This document shows, piece after piece, positions 11,236-53,906 of a stretch of 62,599 nucleotides of DNA. Made by a program: the position numbers and the translations under genes. Each line of letters opens with the position of its first letter. Position 1 is the first letter of the stretch. The DNA comes from a virus (taxonomy: Duplodnaviria > Heunggongvirae > Uroviricota > Caudoviricetes). Under the pieces are notes generated by a model. The model was not told the DNA's origin, searched no databases, and saw only the letters and a list, made by a program, of their open reading frames with translations. The DNA lies in the IMG/VR virus record IMGVR_UViG_3300045988_162118, positions 1 to 62,599 of that record; one strand, 5' to 3'.

Positions 11236-11399
11236 GTATTTTTAAGTCACGAATGCTATCTTTTCGCATCATATTGACCTTTTAATCGTTCAGGCTTATA
11301 GTTCCGCCGTCGTAGCAAATTCTGCGACCAGGTTTGACAGCCTGAATGATTGTGCGGACAACCGCAGATTTCCGATATTGCGGTATTTTTGTGTCCGTT

Positions 11400-11549
11400 A
11401 AACCGCGTTACGCCCAAATTATGGTGGGGCGTGATGGGGAGGCTTCGGCCTGCTGGTTTCACAATCGCCAGTCTGTCAACCCTGTCACGTCCTGCCACCT
11501 GTTTGACAGCGGGTAGCAGGTTGTTAAACCTGATTGTGAGGCCGTAACT
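11400..11549 (+). ncRNA. leader region expected to hold a c4-like antisense repressor RNA (not delimited)
   Basis: Position upstream of icd/ant as in P1 immI; repeated GTTTGACAG elements at 11326 and 11490; boundaries not determined. Confidence 0.25.
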
Positions 11550-13776: not shown

Positions 13777-13805
13777 CAGACGTAGTAAGAACCACCAGCA
13801 TTGTA

Positions 13806-14651
13806 ATGCTGGCTAAAGTCACTTTCCTGAGCTGTATAACGATGAGCGATTTTACTTTTTCTGGCTATGAATTGGCCTGCTTTGTAACACACTCCGGTCT
13901 ATCCCGTAGCGCCGGGCATATCCTGTCGCAATGTGCAAATCTCGCGGCAACAACCAGTGAATACTTCATTCACAAGCCTCACCGCCTGATCGCGGCAGAA
14001 ACTGGTTATAGCCAATCAACCGTCGTTCGTGCATTCCGTGAAGCTGTAAACAAAGGAATTCTGTCTGTAGAGATTGTTATCGGCGATCACCGTGAACGTC
14101 GCGCTAACCTGTACCGGTTTACACCATCCTTTTTGGCCTTCGCACAACAAGCCAAAAATGCGCTGATTGAAAGCAAATTAAAGATCTCTTCAGCGGCAAC
14201 CAAGGTTAAAGCTGTTCTCGCTAAGACATTGGCTTTATTTAATTTTTTATCCACACCCCCATGTCAAAATGATACCCCCTCCCCCTGTCAGGATGACGTG
14301 GCAATAAAGAATAAGAAGTCACAAGTTAAAAAAACAAAAAGATCAGTTTCCGGCGGTGCCGGAACGACCAGACTCAAAAAATTGACTTCATGGATCGCTG
14401 AGGCAAAAGCAAAGGCTGACAATCTGCGGTTATCCAAAAAACGCGCTCAAAAACATGAGTTCAAGCAGAAGGTAGAGGCGGCAGCGCGGAAATATGCTTA
14501 CCTGAAGAACAAGCGTTCTCCTGATATTGGCGGGGTATCAAACTTCGATAATCTGCCGCATTGCATGACGGTAAACGAAGCTCTTAATGCGGTTTTAGCC
14601 AAAAATAAAGATAACGAACAATGGGGTATACCGGCAGGATTCAGAGGGTGA
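13806..14651 (+). CDS. repL: RepL-like lytic replication protein
   Basis: 281 aa directly downstream of kilA; synteny and size. Confidence 0.5.
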   Translation: MLAKVTFLSCITMSDFTFSGYELACFVTHSGLSRSAGHILSQCANLAATTSEYFIHKPHRLIAAETGYSQSTVVRAFREAVNKGILSVEIVIGDHRERRANLYRFTPSFLAFAQQAKNALIESKLKISSAATKVKAVLAKTLALFNFLSTPPCQNDTPSPCQDDVAIKNKKSQVKKTKRSVSGGAGTTRLKKLTSWIAEAKAKADNLRLSKKRAQKHEFKQKVEAAARKYAYLKNKRSPDIGGVSNFDNLPHCMTVNEALNAVLAKNKDNEQWGIPAGFRG

Positions 14652-14700
14652 TAGATTGCTCTAATCTGGAGTCACCTGGCGTTTTCAGTTTGAGGTCGGA

Positions 14701-14947
14701 GATGCAATCTGATTTTTTACAGTTAGCGATCGCTTTTGCAGGATATGTTTGTATTGGCTTCTGTGTATACATGATCAGCCGAAAAATGCTTGTCGATATC
14801 GACCGCAAAGAACAAGCAGAGAAGATCTTAGTATGGATTTTCTTTGGCGCGGTCTGGCCATTAGGGATCATGTTTGCTGCAACATTTCTTCTGATGTGGA
14901 TATTCACCCTTCCAGGTGATTTCTATAGAAAAAAAGCCAGACATTGA
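14701..14947 (+). CDS. small membrane protein
   Basis: Internal Met start of track ORF 14621..14947; two hydrophobic segments. Confidence 0.3.
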
Positions 14948-15070
14948 TACAATCGTTGCGGGTGCTTGAGGCTATCTGCTTCAGGCATTACCCGAAAAGC
15001 AGATAGAAGAAAGCCCCAGATAACATTACGCGTCCTGCAAGACGCTTAACATTAATCTGAGGCCATATCT

Positions 15071-15277
15071 ATGCTTAGCATACGTAGATTAGCCTCTTAC
15101 CGACCAAAAGGTCAAGGAGAAGCAGGCTATGAAGCAGCAAAAAGCGATGTTAATCGCTCTGATCGTCATCTGTTTAACCGTCATTGTGACGGCACTGGTA
15201 ACGAGGAAAGACCTCTGCGAGGTACGAATCCGAACCAGCCAGACGGAGGTCACTGTCTTCACAGCCTACGAATCTGA
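15071..15277 (+). CDS. mok-like overlapping reading frame
   Basis: 68-codon ORF in a different frame covering the start of the hok-like gene. Confidence 0.3.
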   Translation: MLSIRRLASYRPKGQGEAGYEAAKSDVNRSDRHLFNRHCDGTGNEERPLRGTNPNQPDGGHCLHSLRI

Positions 15278-15284
15278 AAGGTAA
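15129..15284 (+). CDS. hok: Hok/Gef-family type I toxin
   Basis: Not in ORF track (51 aa). AAGGAG RBS; MKQQKAMLIALIVICLTVIVTALVTRKDLCEVRIRTSQTEVTVFTAYESER, close to the Hok pattern LTRKSLCEIR...EVAAFMAYES. Confidence 0.7.
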   Translation: MKQQKAMLIALIVICLTVIVTALVTRKDLCEVRIRTSQTEVTVFTAYESER

Positions 15285-15360
15285 GAGACCTGGCGGGGAG
15301 AGATCTCCGCCACTCTTCGTGTGTCAGGTATCCTCAATGCACCCTTTCCTCTCCAAATAA

Positions 15361-15383
15361 AAAAGCTCCCGAAGGAGCTTTAA
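15361..15383 (+). terminator. hairpin at 3' end of hok locus
   Basis: AAGCTCC-CGAA-GGAGCTT then T/A-rich run. Confidence 0.35.
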
Positions 15384-15400
15384 AATACAAGGGATGACTC

Positions 15401-15910
15401 TTAATCCCACTCAATCCAGTTGTAGACGATACGAAGTGACGGGCGCACAGCGGCAGTCACATCTTCGGTACTAAAGTCGATTGCATCACTGTAGATTTTG
15501 CAGTCCAACATTTCAATTGTTGTAGCAGCTTTTGTCACAGCGTTAACCCCGGAAGATTTGGATTCAGGGGTCGCAGCCATCGTGATATCAACATAGTCCT
15601 TCGCCGCAATGCGATCTTTAATGAACTGAAGAATATCGCCTTCGATAGTCTCCACGCACTGGACCTGGATTTCCCCAGAGTTTCGAATTGGACCGTGCTG
15701 GTTGAACTTCACACCATTCGGACCATAGTCCTCCACATCCTCGCGGGTCATTTCAGGAATTTGCGACGTGCGAACCAGTACGCTGATATCTTCATGGCCT
15801 GCAAAAGTGAGCTGGAATTCAGAAGATACCAGTCGTTCGCCTTTGGCCGCGTTGGCAGTATAGCGGCCCTTAATAAATTTACGGTTTCCCTTAGTGTTAT
15901 TGTGCCCCAT
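15401..15910 (-). CDS. tail tube-like structural protein
   Basis: 169 aa, first gene of a minus-strand structural block; size typical of myovirus tube proteins. Confidence 0.35.
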   Translation of the reverse strand: MGHNNTKGNRKFIKGRYTANAAKGERLVSSEFQLTFAGHEDISVLVRTSQIPEMTREDVEDYGPNGVKFNQHGPIRNSGEIQVQCVETIEGDILQFIKDRIAAKDYVDITMAATPESKSSGVNAVTKAATTIEMLDCKIYSDAIDFSTEDVTAAVRPSLRIVYNWIEWD

Positions 15911-15921
15911 ATAAAATCCTT

Positions 15922-16503
15922 TTACTGGAACGCCCGAACAATATCGGAGCTGTTATATATCGAAGAACCGGTCAACTGGAGGTTGACGGTGTTTTTCAGG
16001 AAATGCCCATTGCTGTCCCTGGGCGCATCGAGATCGAAACTTATGTCCTGGATAGCGACATCAATGATGTTGATCCGGCGACCAATGTTTAGCGTCACAC
16101 GCTCCGGGATTCGACCACCAATACTGGCATCTTTAAGTTCCGGGCTAATCATCGCTGACAATGCGGCGATAGCTCCTGAAACCTCCGTGAATGGGTCAAA
16201 CAAAGCGATGAAAGTTACTGGCAGCGTGAAAGTCGGCGGTGTTCCCCCTTCCCAAACCATTAAGCTGTTCCAACGGGCAACCGACGTTGTTTCAGTACCA
16301 ACCTGCGCAAAACCACTGAAGGCACCAGCAACAGATCCCATGGACATACCGGTAAACGGCGCTTCCCAATTCTGGGCCATGTTCATTGCCGCTCCCTGGC
16401 TGATATATCCGGTAACCTGGTACTGAGAGTTCGTTAAAGTAACTTTCAGATATGGCGATACACCGTCAGCCTGGCTGTAAACCCCATAAGGAATAGGTGC
16501 CAT
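15922..16503 (-). CDS. structural protein (tail tube or assembly)
   Basis: 193 aa, adjacent to sheath-like gene. Confidence 0.35.
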   Translation of the reverse strand: MAPIPYGVYSQADGVSPYLKVTLTNSQYQVTGYISQGAAMNMAQNWEAPFTGMSMGSVAGAFSGFAQVGTETTSVARWNSLMVWEGGTPPTFTLPVTFIALFDPFTEVSGAIAALSAMISPELKDASIGGRIPERVTLNIGRRINIIDVAIQDISFDLDAPRDSNGHFLKNTVNLQLTGSSIYNSSDIVRAFQ

Positions 16504-53304: not shown

Positions 53305-53526
53305 ATGCAATCCATTAACTTCCGTACCGCGCGCGGCAACCTTTCTGAAGTGCTCAACAATGTTGAAGCCGGGGAAGAGGTTGAAATCACCCGCAGAGGC
53401 CGTGAGCCAGCAGTAATTGTCAGCAAGGCTACTTTCGAAGCCTACAAAAAAGCGGCGCTGGATGCTGAATTTGCATCCCTGTTTGACACCCTGGACTCCA
53501 CCAACAAGGAACTGGTTAACCGATAA
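53305..53526 (+). CDS. phd: Phd antitoxin
   Basis: 73 aa [73 protein letters not shown], recognised as P1 Phd. Confidence 0.9.
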
Positions 53527-53906
53527 TGAGGCATATATCACCGGAAGAACTTATTGCGCTTCATGATGCGAATATAAGCCGCTACGGCGGCCTGCCTGGC
53601 ATGTCAGATCCGGGCAGGGCAGAGGCCATTATCGGGAGAGTTCAGGCCAGAGTTGCCTACGAAGAGATCACCGACCTTTTCGAAGTCTCCGCCACCTACC
53701 TGGTGGCTACAGCGAGAGGGCATATATTCAATGATGCCAATAAGCGTACCGCGCTAAACAGTGCGCTGCTATTTCTACGCCGTAACGGGGTGCAGGTATT
53801 TGATTCACCAGAACTGGCAGACCTTACCGTAGGGGCTGCGACCGGAGAGATATCTGTATCTTCTGTCGCCGACACGTTACGTAGATTGTATGGTTCTGCG
53901 GAGTAG
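53526..53906 (+). CDS. doc: Doc toxin (Fic-fold kinase)
   Basis: 126 aa; start overlaps phd stop (TAATG); Fic-like core [15 protein letters not shown]. Confidence 0.9.

What the first reader, a model, noticed from the sequence alone, without database searches (positions are those of the whole stretch)
14950..15385. hok/mok-like type I toxin locus missed by the ORF track
A 51-codon gene with AAGGAG RBS encodes a peptide strongly resembling Hok/Gef toxins (single TM helix, then LTRKDLCEVRIR...EVTVFTAYES). A 68-codon overlapping frame plays the role of mok, and a hairpin closes the locus. An antisense Sok-like RNA would be expected opposite the mok start (about 15030-15110, minus strand) but cannot be delimited by eye. 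I do not recall a hok locus in reference P1, so this is probably accessory post-segregational-killing or abortive-infection cargo.
Basis: partly seen in the sequence, partly recalled or inferred. Interest (0 to 1): 0.5.

Follow-up and report, generated by a model that had tools for sequence, protein, structure and literature searches.

The report
Known hok/sok toxin–antitoxin in P1-like plasmid
This is an intact copy of the well-known hok/mok/sok killer-peptide and antisense-RNA module, sitting in a variable slot of a P1-like phage-plasmid; databases already annotate it as hokD in hundreds of plasmids, so it is real but ordinary.

Summary
A 51-codon gene (15129-15284, AAGGAG RBS) encodes a Hok/Gef peptide (Pfam PF01848, 73 bits against a cutoff of 22), and a 68-codon frame starts upstream at 15071. 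The leader matches Rfam RF01794 (115 bits against 59). I delimited the whole module: promoter 14926-14953, transcript from about 14960 to about 15344, and a Sok-like antisense RNA at about 15079 to 15009 with its own promoter (15115-15086). The 5' end (tac) pairs with the 3' end (fbi), and 32 of 36 homologs keep this pairing, some through compensatory changes. The module is 87% identical to hokW-sokW of phage 933W/Sp5, which has been shown experimentally to be a type I toxin-antitoxin. The peptide is 94% identical to K-12 HokD. Reference P1 does lack it: a 693-bp cassette (14666-15358) replaces Orlf-rlfA-rlfB-pmgF. This is nevertheless the commoner allele among sequenced P1-like plasmids (262 against 99) and is annotated hokD by PGAP. 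Verdict: already known, low interest.

The parts
14926..14953 (+). hok promoter: TAGAAA - 16 nt - TACAAT with an extended -10 TG. It predicts +1 at about 14960.
   Evidence: Consensus scan. The Rfam leader model begins at 14960. Homology to distant hok loci begins at 14957-14960.
14960..15344 (+). Full-length hok mRNA (about 385 nt). This is the conserved unit of the module.
   Evidence: Alignments to 111 related loci from 100% down to about 67% identity start at 14957-14960 and end at 15344-15345. MFE -154.6 kcal/mol, z=-7.05 against shuffles.
14960..14971 (+). tac box (GGGTGCTTGAGG) at the 5' end. It pairs with fbi.
   Evidence: The MFE fold pairs it with 15332-15344. The duplex is -20.6 kcal/mol here and forms in 32 of 36 homologs. 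Pair col8/417 is U-A in 24, C-G in 7 and U-G in 3 sequences.
14972..15006 (+). 5' leader hairpin (CTATCTGCTT / AAGCAGATAG).
   Evidence: Rfam structure. 91.9% of cells are paired across 36 homologs, and 2 pairs show changes on both sides.
15009..15079 (-). Sok-like antisense RNA (about 67-75 nt). It has a single-stranded 5' tail (15079-15065, complementary to the mok AUG), a long hairpin (15064-15013) and a UUUCUUCU tail.
   Evidence: Maps onto the annotated sokW of 933W. Fold -30.4 kcal/mol, z=-4.56. In all 36 homologs the antisense strand folds much better than the sense strand, here -30.4 against -18.3, and stem variants are compensated.
15086..15115 (-). sok promoter: -35 TTGACC (15115-15110), 18-nt spacer, -10 TAATCT (15091-15086). 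The -35 box overlaps the hok Shine-Dalgarno.
   Evidence: Read directly from the sequence. The -10 box corresponds to the box mutated in the published sokW promoter-less construct (primer YO-421, PMC8621323). The simple scan did not report it, because only 3 of 6 positions match in the -10.
15060..15063 (+). Candidate mok Shine-Dalgarno (GAGG), 7 nt before the mok ATG. It lies inside the Sok-complementary region.
   Evidence: Sequence. The block TGAGGC is invariant in the 36-sequence alignment.
15071..15277 (+). mok frame: 68 codons, +1 relative to hok, ending 7 nt before the hok stop.
   Evidence: The ATG is conserved in 35 of 36 homologs, but the frame varies: 0 in most, +1 here, +2 with 19 codons in some. 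It matches PHROG 37205, function unknown.
15114..15119 (+). hok Shine-Dalgarno AAGGAG.
   Evidence: Sequence. Conserved in the alignment.
15129..15284 (+). hok toxin gene, 51 aa.
   Evidence: Pfam PF01848 73.1 bits, cutoff 22. PHROG 251 107.8 bits. 94% identical to K-12 HokD and 40% to R1 Hok. 46/51 identical to HokW. The identical locus is annotated hokD, WP_023156625.1.
15292..15311 (+). GC-rich 3' hairpin of hok mRNA (GGCGGGGAGA..TCTCCGCC). In other P1-like copies an IS4-family element is inserted at positions equivalent to 15301-15305.
   Evidence: Fold, alignment, IS421-family transposase annotated at this point in L132.
15332..15344 (+). fbi box (CCTCAATGCACCC), the 3' partner of tac.
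   Evidence: Homology of the module ends here.

Best explanation
The locus is an intact hok/mok/sok type I toxin-antitoxin module of the hokD/hokW subfamily. It is carried, together with an 81-aa membrane-protein ORF, on a 693-bp cassette that replaces Orlf-rlfA-rlfB-pmgF of reference P1.

Mechanism (canonical R1 model; the parts verified here are marked):
- A weak promoter (14926-14953) makes a stable mRNA of about 385 nt. Its 5' end (tac) is locked onto its 3' end (fbi), which keeps it translationally silent [pairing shown by fold and covariation].
- A stronger antisense promoter (15115-15086), overlapping the hok SD, makes a short Sok RNA of about 70 nt. Its single-stranded 5' tail and hairpin are complementary to the mok SD and AUG [anatomy shown; expression and instability inferred from R1 and 933W].
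- Slow 3' trimming removes fbi and the 5' end refolds [the fold of the truncated RNA changes as expected].
- While Sok is present it pairs with the mRNA, blocks mok translation, and the duplex is cut by RNase III [inferred].
- When Sok synthesis stops, either through plasmid loss or transcription shut-off, ribosomes start at mok and run into the hok start. Hok is made and inserts in the inner membrane, and the cell loses membrane potential and dies [inferred; toxicity and inner-membrane location were shown for HokW, which is 90% identical].

Most likely role on this low-copy plasmid prophage: post-segregational killing, as a second addiction module beside phd/doc (about 0.5). Assisting lysis and phage release on induction, as shown for hokW-sokW, is the main alternative (about 0.25-0.3).
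For: - Family hits: Pfam HOK_GEF 73 bits, Rfam RF01794 114.9 bits at 14960-15134, PHROG 251.
- 87% nucleotide identity over 14948-15344 to the 933W hokW/mokW/sokW locus, where sokW is annotated.
- hokW-sokW has been shown experimentally to be a type I TA: HokW is toxic and located in the inner membrane, and sokW neutralises it from its own promoter (PMC8621323).
- Promoter and +1.
- tac-fbi closure in the MFE fold, z=-7. It is retained in 32 of 36 homologs, with a U-A to C-G switch in 7. 89.6% of cells are paired, against 39-53% for slid controls.
- Sok has the expected shape, z=-4.6, with an antisense-strand stability bias in all 36 homologs.
- The mok ATG is conserved in 35 of 36.
- Truncating the last ~40 nt abolishes end-pairing and the 5' end refolds locally.
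- The identical locus is present at >=99% identity in about 300 plasmids and is annotated hokD.
- phd/doc is also present, at 53305-53903.
Against: - No expression or toxicity data exist for this exact allele.
- The sok -10 box (TAATCT) is weak by consensus, and the automated scan did not call it.
- The NCBIfam Hok subfamily and HokA equivalog models score below their cutoffs (46.5 against 73; 36 against 89), so subfamily naming rests on BLAST-level identity.
- Many chromosomal hok loci are known to be inactive.
- Some P1-like copies are IS-disrupted, so the module is dispensable.
- The biological role (PSK, lysis aid or phage exclusion) cannot be decided from sequence.
Confidence: 0.88

Rival explanations
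1. The module is functional, but its selected role in the phage-plasmid is to help lysis and progeny release on prophage induction, as shown for hokW-sokW in Sp5. Sok disappears on induction, Hok is made early, and it weakens the inner membrane ahead of holin and endolysin.
For: The closest characterised relative (87% nt identity, 46/51 aa) does exactly this in a temperate phage: deleting hokW-sokW delays growth arrest by about 40 min and halves released phage (PMC8621323). The locus here sits just downstream of the C1-controlled kilA-repL lytic replicon, in the same orientation. The element already has phd/doc for addiction.
Against: P1 has its own holin, antiholin and endolysin system. Nothing in the sequence couples sok to induction. 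A terminator-like site at 14904-14919 (+) lies between repL and hok. Reference P1 does without the module.
Confidence: 0.27
2. The module acts mainly as an abortive-infection or phage-exclusion device. A superinfecting lytic phage shuts off host transcription, Sok decays, and Hok kills the cell before the invader matures.
For: R1 hok/sok on a high-copy plasmid was reported to reduce T4 plating efficiency and plaque size (cited in PMC8621323). Prophages and phage-plasmids often carry defence cargo in variable slots such as this one.
Against: The reported effect for R1 was modest and needed high copy number, whereas this is a low-copy replicon. No other defence genes flank the locus.
Confidence: 0.1
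3. The locus is an inert hitch-hiker: sequence-intact but not expressed at effective levels, like several chromosomal hok loci.
For: Hok-like modules are near-ubiquitous: 4738 of 5426 complete E. coli genomes have a match, with a median of 2 places. Many are truncated (K-12 hokD keeps only the 3' 58%) or IS-disrupted, including in P1-like plasmids.
Against: All regulatory elements are intact here. The allele is >=99% conserved across hundreds of plasmids in four or more genera. The 87%-identical hokW-sokW is active at single copy.
Confidence: 0.08

Closest known systems
hokW-mokW-sokW of Stx2 phages 933W / Sp5 (AF125520; Takada et al. 2021, PMC8621323)
   Same: 87% nucleotide identity across the whole module, from the -10 box to fbi (14948-15344). 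The peptide is 46/51 identical. tac, fbi, the Sok hairpin, the sok -10 position and the mok ATG are all shared. Both are carried by a temperate phage.
   Different: A 1-nt indel upstream of the hok SD puts mok in frame with hok in 933W (a 70-aa N-extended Hok) but in the +1 frame here (68 codons). The host element here is a plasmid prophage rather than an integrated lambdoid phage. The sok -10 is TAATCT here against TAACCT.
hok/sok (parB) of plasmid R1, the founding member
   Same: Same architecture and the same inferred mechanism: a weak hok promoter, a 5'-3' tac/fbi lock, out-of-frame mok overlapping hok, cis-antisense Sok over the mok start, and a plasmid location.
   Different: Only 40% peptide identity, and the DNA is not alignable by megablast. 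The Sok hairpin here is longer, with an extra ~20-nt insert shared with the hokD/hokW group.
hokD (relF) of E. coli K-12 Qin prophage
   Same: 94% peptide identity. This is the source of the PGAP name 'HokD' given to this plasmid gene.
   Different: The K-12 locus matches only from window 15115 onward. It therefore lacks the promoter, tac, the mok start and sok. The window's locus is complete.
hokC (gef)/mokC and other chromosomal hok loci
   Same: Same module boundaries and elements at about 74% nt identity (L017-L023). IS186-family insertions in the 3' hairpin occur both in chromosomal loci and in some P1-like copies.
   Different: They have a shorter Sok hairpin and an in-frame mok. The window's copy is not IS-disrupted.

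Membership tests
Hok/Gef toxin family (Pfam PF01848) | A peptide of about 50 aa matching the HOK_GEF profile above the gathering threshold, with an N-terminal TM helix and a conserved C-terminal part containing Cys. | tested here: met
   73.1 bits against a cutoff of 22, profile positions 1-42 of 42. PHROG 251, 107.8 bits.
hok/sok type I TA locus | A conserved hok mRNA leader / sok region (Rfam RF01794) at or above the gathering score. | tested here: met
   114.9 bits against 59, full model 1-157, at 14960-15134. The model matches the hok-sense strand; Sok itself is antisense to part of it.
hok/sok type I TA locus | A cis-encoded antisense RNA with its own promoter, a single-stranded 5' tail and a terminator hairpin, complementary to the mok translation-initiation region. 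| tested here: met
   Maps to the annotated sokW. Fold z=-4.6. Promoter TTGACC-18-TAATCT read from the sequence, with the -10 matching the box mutated in PMC8621323. Strand-biased stability in 36 of 36 homologs. Actual transcription was not tested.
hok/sok type I TA locus | An upstream reading frame (mok) that starts inside the Sok target and runs into or over the hok start. | tested here: met
   ATG at 15071, 68 codons. The ATG is conserved in 35 of 36 homologs and always reaches the hok start, but the frame is not conserved.
hok/sok type I TA locus | Long-range 5'-3' pairing (tac-fbi) that closes the full-length mRNA. | tested here: met
   MFE closure. Duplex -20.6 kcal/mol, and 32 of 36 homologs retain it. 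Compensatory U-A/C-G change: 0 of 500 shuffles reach the observed score, and slid controls pair 39-53% of cells against 89.6%.
hok/sok type I TA locus | The peptide is toxic, and the antisense RNA neutralises it. | not testable with these tools
   Shown only for the 90%-identical HokW/sokW (PMC8621323).
NCBIfam NF007279 (Hok subfamily) / NF007290 (HokA equivalog) | Score at or above the curated cutoff. | tested here: not met
   46.5 against 73, and 36 against 89. These models cover other Hok subgroups. This does not affect Hok/Gef family membership, but the protein should not be called HokA.
HokD (RelF) orthologue group | High identity to K-12 HokD. | tested here: met
   47/50 identical (94%) by tblastn. 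PGAP names the identical protein HokD. The K-12 locus context (relBEF, no sok) is not shared.

The most novel reading that the evidence does not exclude
In P1-like phage-plasmids the hok/sok module sits directly downstream of the C1-repressed kilA-repL lytic operon, in the same orientation. The cassette junction lies inside the C1 operator Orlf. On induction, read-through or replication from repL might override sok transcription and so tie Hok production to the lytic switch. This would give a mechanistic answer to the open question of how sokW-type RNAs disappear on prophage induction. The same module would also serve as plasmid addiction in the lysogen.
Probability: 0.1. Interest if true: 0.45.

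Novelty: already known. Interest (0 to 1): 0.1.

Why it matters
It matters little for discovery. The module belongs to one of the best-studied toxin-antitoxin families, its closest relative has been characterised experimentally, and this exact allele is already annotated in hundreds of public plasmids. The practical value is in annotation. The report gives full coordinates for the RNA elements (Sok, its promoter, tac/fbi) that gene callers omit. It shows that the 'sok' Rfam hit marks the hok-sense leader. It also documents that the hok cassette, not the reference-P1 rlfA-rlfB-pmgF arrangement, is the prevalent allele in natural P1-like phage-plasmids, which therefore usually carry two addiction-type modules (phd/doc plus hok/sok).

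Tried and rejected
- **Hairpin 15362-15381 as the hok terminator: rejected.** It lies in P1-backbone homology and is terminator-like only on the minus strand. The true 3' end of the hok transcript beyond 15344 remains undefined.
- **Rfam minus-strand 'sok' hit at 14869-15017 and the CRISPR-DR46, ceN48 and sbrA hits:** all far below their gathering scores, so treated as noise.
- **Literature searches for hok in P1-like elements** ('P1-like'/'hok'/'phage-plasmid'; 'rlfA'/'hok'): no paper discusses this locus specifically.
- **Pfam and NCBIfam on the mok frame, the 81/108-aa upstream ORF, RepL and BplB:** no hits.
- **Automated promoter scan:** it did not call the sok promoter. I assigned the promoter by eye and by homology to the published sokW -10.
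- **A conserved Mok protein: rejected.** The frame varies among close relatives.
- **Large protein-database searches and structure prediction:** not run, because the identity was already settled by annotated identical records.

Full report
**1. What is in the sequence**

- A 51-codon gene lies at 15129-15284 (+). It encodes MKQQKAMLIALIVICLTVIVTALVTRKDLCEVRIRTSQTEVTVFTAYESER and is preceded by AAGGAG (15114-15119).
- An overlapping 68-codon frame runs from an ATG at 15071 to 15277, in the +1 frame relative to hok.
- The peptide matches Pfam HOK_GEF over the whole profile (73.1 bits, cutoff 22) and PHROG 251 'MokW-like host killing' (107.8 bits).
- The leader matches Rfam RF01794 'sok' over the whole model (114.9 bits, gathering score 59) at 14960-15134. 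That hit is on the + strand, so the Rfam model represents the hok-sense leader. The real Sok RNA is antisense to part of it.
- This is the only hok/sok locus in the window.

**2. What replicon, and is the locus already known?**

The window is a P1-like (IncY) phage-plasmid.
- The flanking genes are icd, kilA and repL (13806-14651) on the left, and bplB (15401-15910, minus strand), pmgG, gene 21 and the sheath gene on the right.
- C4 RNA, tRNAs and phd/doc (53305-53903) are also present.
- The 451-bp query is 100% identical to several roughly 95-kb E. coli plasmids. It is >=99% identical in 304 PLSDB records from Escherichia, Salmonella, Klebsiella and other genera. PGAP annotates the gene there as 'type I toxin-antitoxin system toxin HokD' (WP_023156625.1).
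- A 'Punavirus P1' record labels it MokW.
- Related modules at 80-90% identity sit in Rac, Stx phages and many other phages. They are also found in 4738 of 5426 complete E. coli genomes.

**3. Relation to reference P1**

Homology to NC_005856 covers window 13800-14665 and 15359-16497. The 693 bp at 14666-15358 replace 1826 bp of P1 that hold the C1 operator Orlf, rlfA, rlfB and pmgF.
- The left junction falls inside Orlf. Its core, ATTGCTCTAAT (14655-14665), is retained.
- The cassette has two parts: an 81-aa two-TM ORF (14702-14947; phrog_3772, function unknown; found only in P1-like elements) and the hok module.
- Among PLSDB plasmids, however, 262 carry the hok arrangement and 99 the reference arrangement.
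- P7, RCS47 and SJ46 have other contents at this site, so it is a variable slot.

**4. Anatomy of the module**

*Boundaries.* Alignments to 111 related loci, from 100% down to about 67% identity (Escherichia, Shigella, Kluyvera, Citrobacter, Erwinia, Photorhabdus and viral contigs), begin at 14957-14960 and end at 15344-15345. The conserved unit is therefore the transcript.

*Promoter.* TAGAAA-16-TACAAT with an upstream TG lies at 14926-14953 and predicts +1 near 14960, which is where the Rfam model starts.

*End-pairing.* In the MFE fold of 14960-15350 (z=-7.05), the 5' GGGUGCUUGAGG (tac, 14960-14971) pairs with the 3' CCUCAAUGCACCC (fbi, 15332-15344).
- Across 36 non-redundant homologs the duplex forms in 32, at -16.7 to -25 kcal/mol.
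- The four exceptions are a degenerate 5' end (L009), two IS-truncated loci (L017, L061) and one mis-extracted tandem copy (L043).
- One pair switches from U-A (24 sequences) to C-G (7) or U-G (3).
- 89.6% of cells are paired, against 39-53% when the 3' partners are slid. No shuffle out of 500 reaches the observed covariation score.
- The shuffle control ignores phylogeny, so I treat this as supportive rather than as proof.

*3' processing.* Removing the last ~40 nt abolishes the closure, and the 5' end refolds into a local hairpin. The published R1 model (my knowledge of the Gerdes-lab work) expects this.

*Sok.* The annotated sokW of 933W (AF125520) maps through the pairwise alignment to window 15079->15009 on the minus strand.
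- The RNA folds as a 15-nt single-stranded tail, a long hairpin (15064-15013) and a UUUCUUCU tail. The tail contains CAU opposite the mok AUG, and the hairpin covers the mok SD GAGG. The fold is -30.4 kcal/mol, z=-4.56.
- In every one of the 36 homologs the antisense strand is much more stable than the sense strand, here -30.4 against -18.3 kcal/mol. G·U pairs on the antisense become C·A mismatches on the sense strand.
- Stem variants are compensated (CAGAU/AUCUG, CAAAU/AUUUG, CGGGU/ACUCG).
- Upstream on the minus strand I read TTGACC (15115-15110), 18 nt, then TAATCT (15091-15086). The -35 box overlaps the hok SD. The -10 box corresponds to the one altered in the published sokW promoter-less construct (primer YO-421).
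- The automated scan did not report this promoter.

*mok.* The ATG at 15071 is conserved in 35 of 36 homologs, but the frame relative to hok is not.
- It is 0 in most relatives, giving an N-extended Hok as in mokW and mokC.
- It is +1 here, in the other P1-like copy in the alignment (L061) and in one chromosomal E. coli locus (L009), giving 68 codons.
- It is +2 in some, giving 19 codons that end just past the hok start.
- What is conserved is initiation at that point and translation into the hok start. This fits translational coupling rather than a functional Mok protein.

*The 'closing' hairpin.* The hairpin at 15362-15381 is 100% identical to reference P1. It scores as a terminator only on the minus strand, after bplB. 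It is not part of the hok module, and where the hok transcript actually ends beyond 15344 is not determined.

**5. How it most likely works**

I commit to the canonical hok/sok mechanism.
- The hok mRNA is stable and locked by its paired ends.
- Sok is made constitutively and is short-lived. It masks the mok initiation region.
- 3' trimming unlocks the mRNA.
- If Sok is no longer supplied, mok is translated and then hok, and Hok depolarises the inner membrane.

The steps shown here are the peptide family, the promoters, the end-pairing with covariation, the Sok shape with its strand bias, and the conserved mok start. The steps inferred are transcript stabilities, RNase III cleavage and toxicity. 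Toxicity, antitoxin activity from the sok promoter, inner-membrane location and partial RNase III/Hfq dependence were demonstrated for hokW-sokW (PMC8621323). That locus is 87% identical in DNA and 46/51 identical in peptide.

**6. Biological role**

On a low-copy plasmid prophage the obvious role is post-segregational killing, in addition to phd/doc. I put this at about 0.5. The closest characterised relative instead promotes lysis and doubles phage release on induction, which I put at about 0.25-0.3. Phage exclusion and inert carriage are less likely. Sequence alone cannot decide between these roles.

**7. Comparison with known families, and novelty**

All testable defining features of a hok/sok locus are met. 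Only toxicity and antitoxicity could not be tested. The NCBIfam Hok-subfamily and HokA models fall below their cutoffs, so the peptide belongs to the HokD/HokW group. It is 94% identical to K-12 HokD. Unlike K-12 hokD, which keeps only the 3' part of the module, this locus is complete. The locus is already annotated in public records and belongs to a thoroughly studied family: already known, low interest.

**8. Side observations**

- In some P1-like plasmids and viral contigs an IS4-family (IS421/IS186-like) element is inserted at the position equivalent to 15301-15305, detaching fbi. I recall from the literature that K-12 hok loci are inactivated by IS insertions in the same way.
- Very short 'Acinetobacter idrijaensis' (L014) and 'Xanthomonas pisi' (L027) contigs carry hok sequence, about 99% and 87% identical to the window respectively. 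L014 runs on into the P1 backbone. Both look like assembly contamination.

Noticed in passing
window 14702-14947 (+): An 81-aa ORF with two predicted TM segments (PGAP WP_001369095.1; phrog_3772, function unknown). It forms the left half of the cassette that carries hok and is found only in P1-like elements. Its 3' end overlaps the hok promoter. The longer 108-aa reading from 14621 overlaps the end of repL and is probably not the real start.
   Followed up: partly
window 14655-14665: The left junction of the cassette lies inside P1's C1 operator Orlf/Op55. The core ATTGCTCTAAT is kept and the rest is replaced, so the 81-aa ORF may still be under C1 control. Fifteen other C1-operator-like sites are present in the window, against 0.3 expected by chance.
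   Followed up: partly
L132 2501-4142 (NZ_CP122864.1); L061; position equivalent to window 15301-15305: Other P1-like plasmids and viral contigs have an IS4-family IS421/IS186-like element inserted in the GC-rich 3' hairpin of hok mRNA, which separates fbi from the transcript. As I recall, K-12 chromosomal hok loci are disrupted in the same way. The window's copy is intact.
   Followed up: partly
window 15362-15381: The hairpin AAAGCTCC-CGAA-GGAGCTTT is P1 backbone (100% identical to NC_005856). It is terminator-like only on the minus strand, downstream of bplB, and it is not part of the hok module.
   Followed up: yes
window 14960-15134 (+): Rfam RF01794 is named 'sok antitoxin' but matches the hok-sense leader strand. 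An annotation taken at face value would put Sok on the wrong strand and make it about 100 nt too long.
   Followed up: yes
window 15071; alignment A2 column 120: The mok start codon is conserved in 35 of 36 homologs, but its frame relative to hok is 0, +1 or +2 depending on small indels near the hok SD. In most relatives 'Mok' is simply an N-terminally extended Hok.
   Followed up: yes
window 53305-53903 (+): P1's phd/doc addiction module is present (Phd 100%, Doc 99% identical to probes), so this element carries two addiction-type modules.
   Followed up: partly
window 31804-33567 (+); 11296-11502 (+): There are four tRNA hits (three strong and one at 41.9 bits), plus the C4 antisense RNA with its a1/b1 targets. 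I did not compare the tRNA count with reference P1.
   Followed up: no
L014 (Acinetobacter idrijaensis, 275 bp); L027 (Xanthomonas pisi, 431 bp): Tiny contigs in non-enterobacterial assemblies carry hok sequence, about 99% (L014) and 87% (L027) identical to the window. L014 continues into the P1 backbone. This is most likely contamination of those assemblies.
   Followed up: no
window 14560-15460 compared with L004 1060-3100: In PLSDB, 262 plasmids have the hok arrangement between repL and bplB and 99 have the reference-P1 rlfA-rlfB-pmgF arrangement. Reference P1 is therefore the minority allele at this site.
   Followed up: yes
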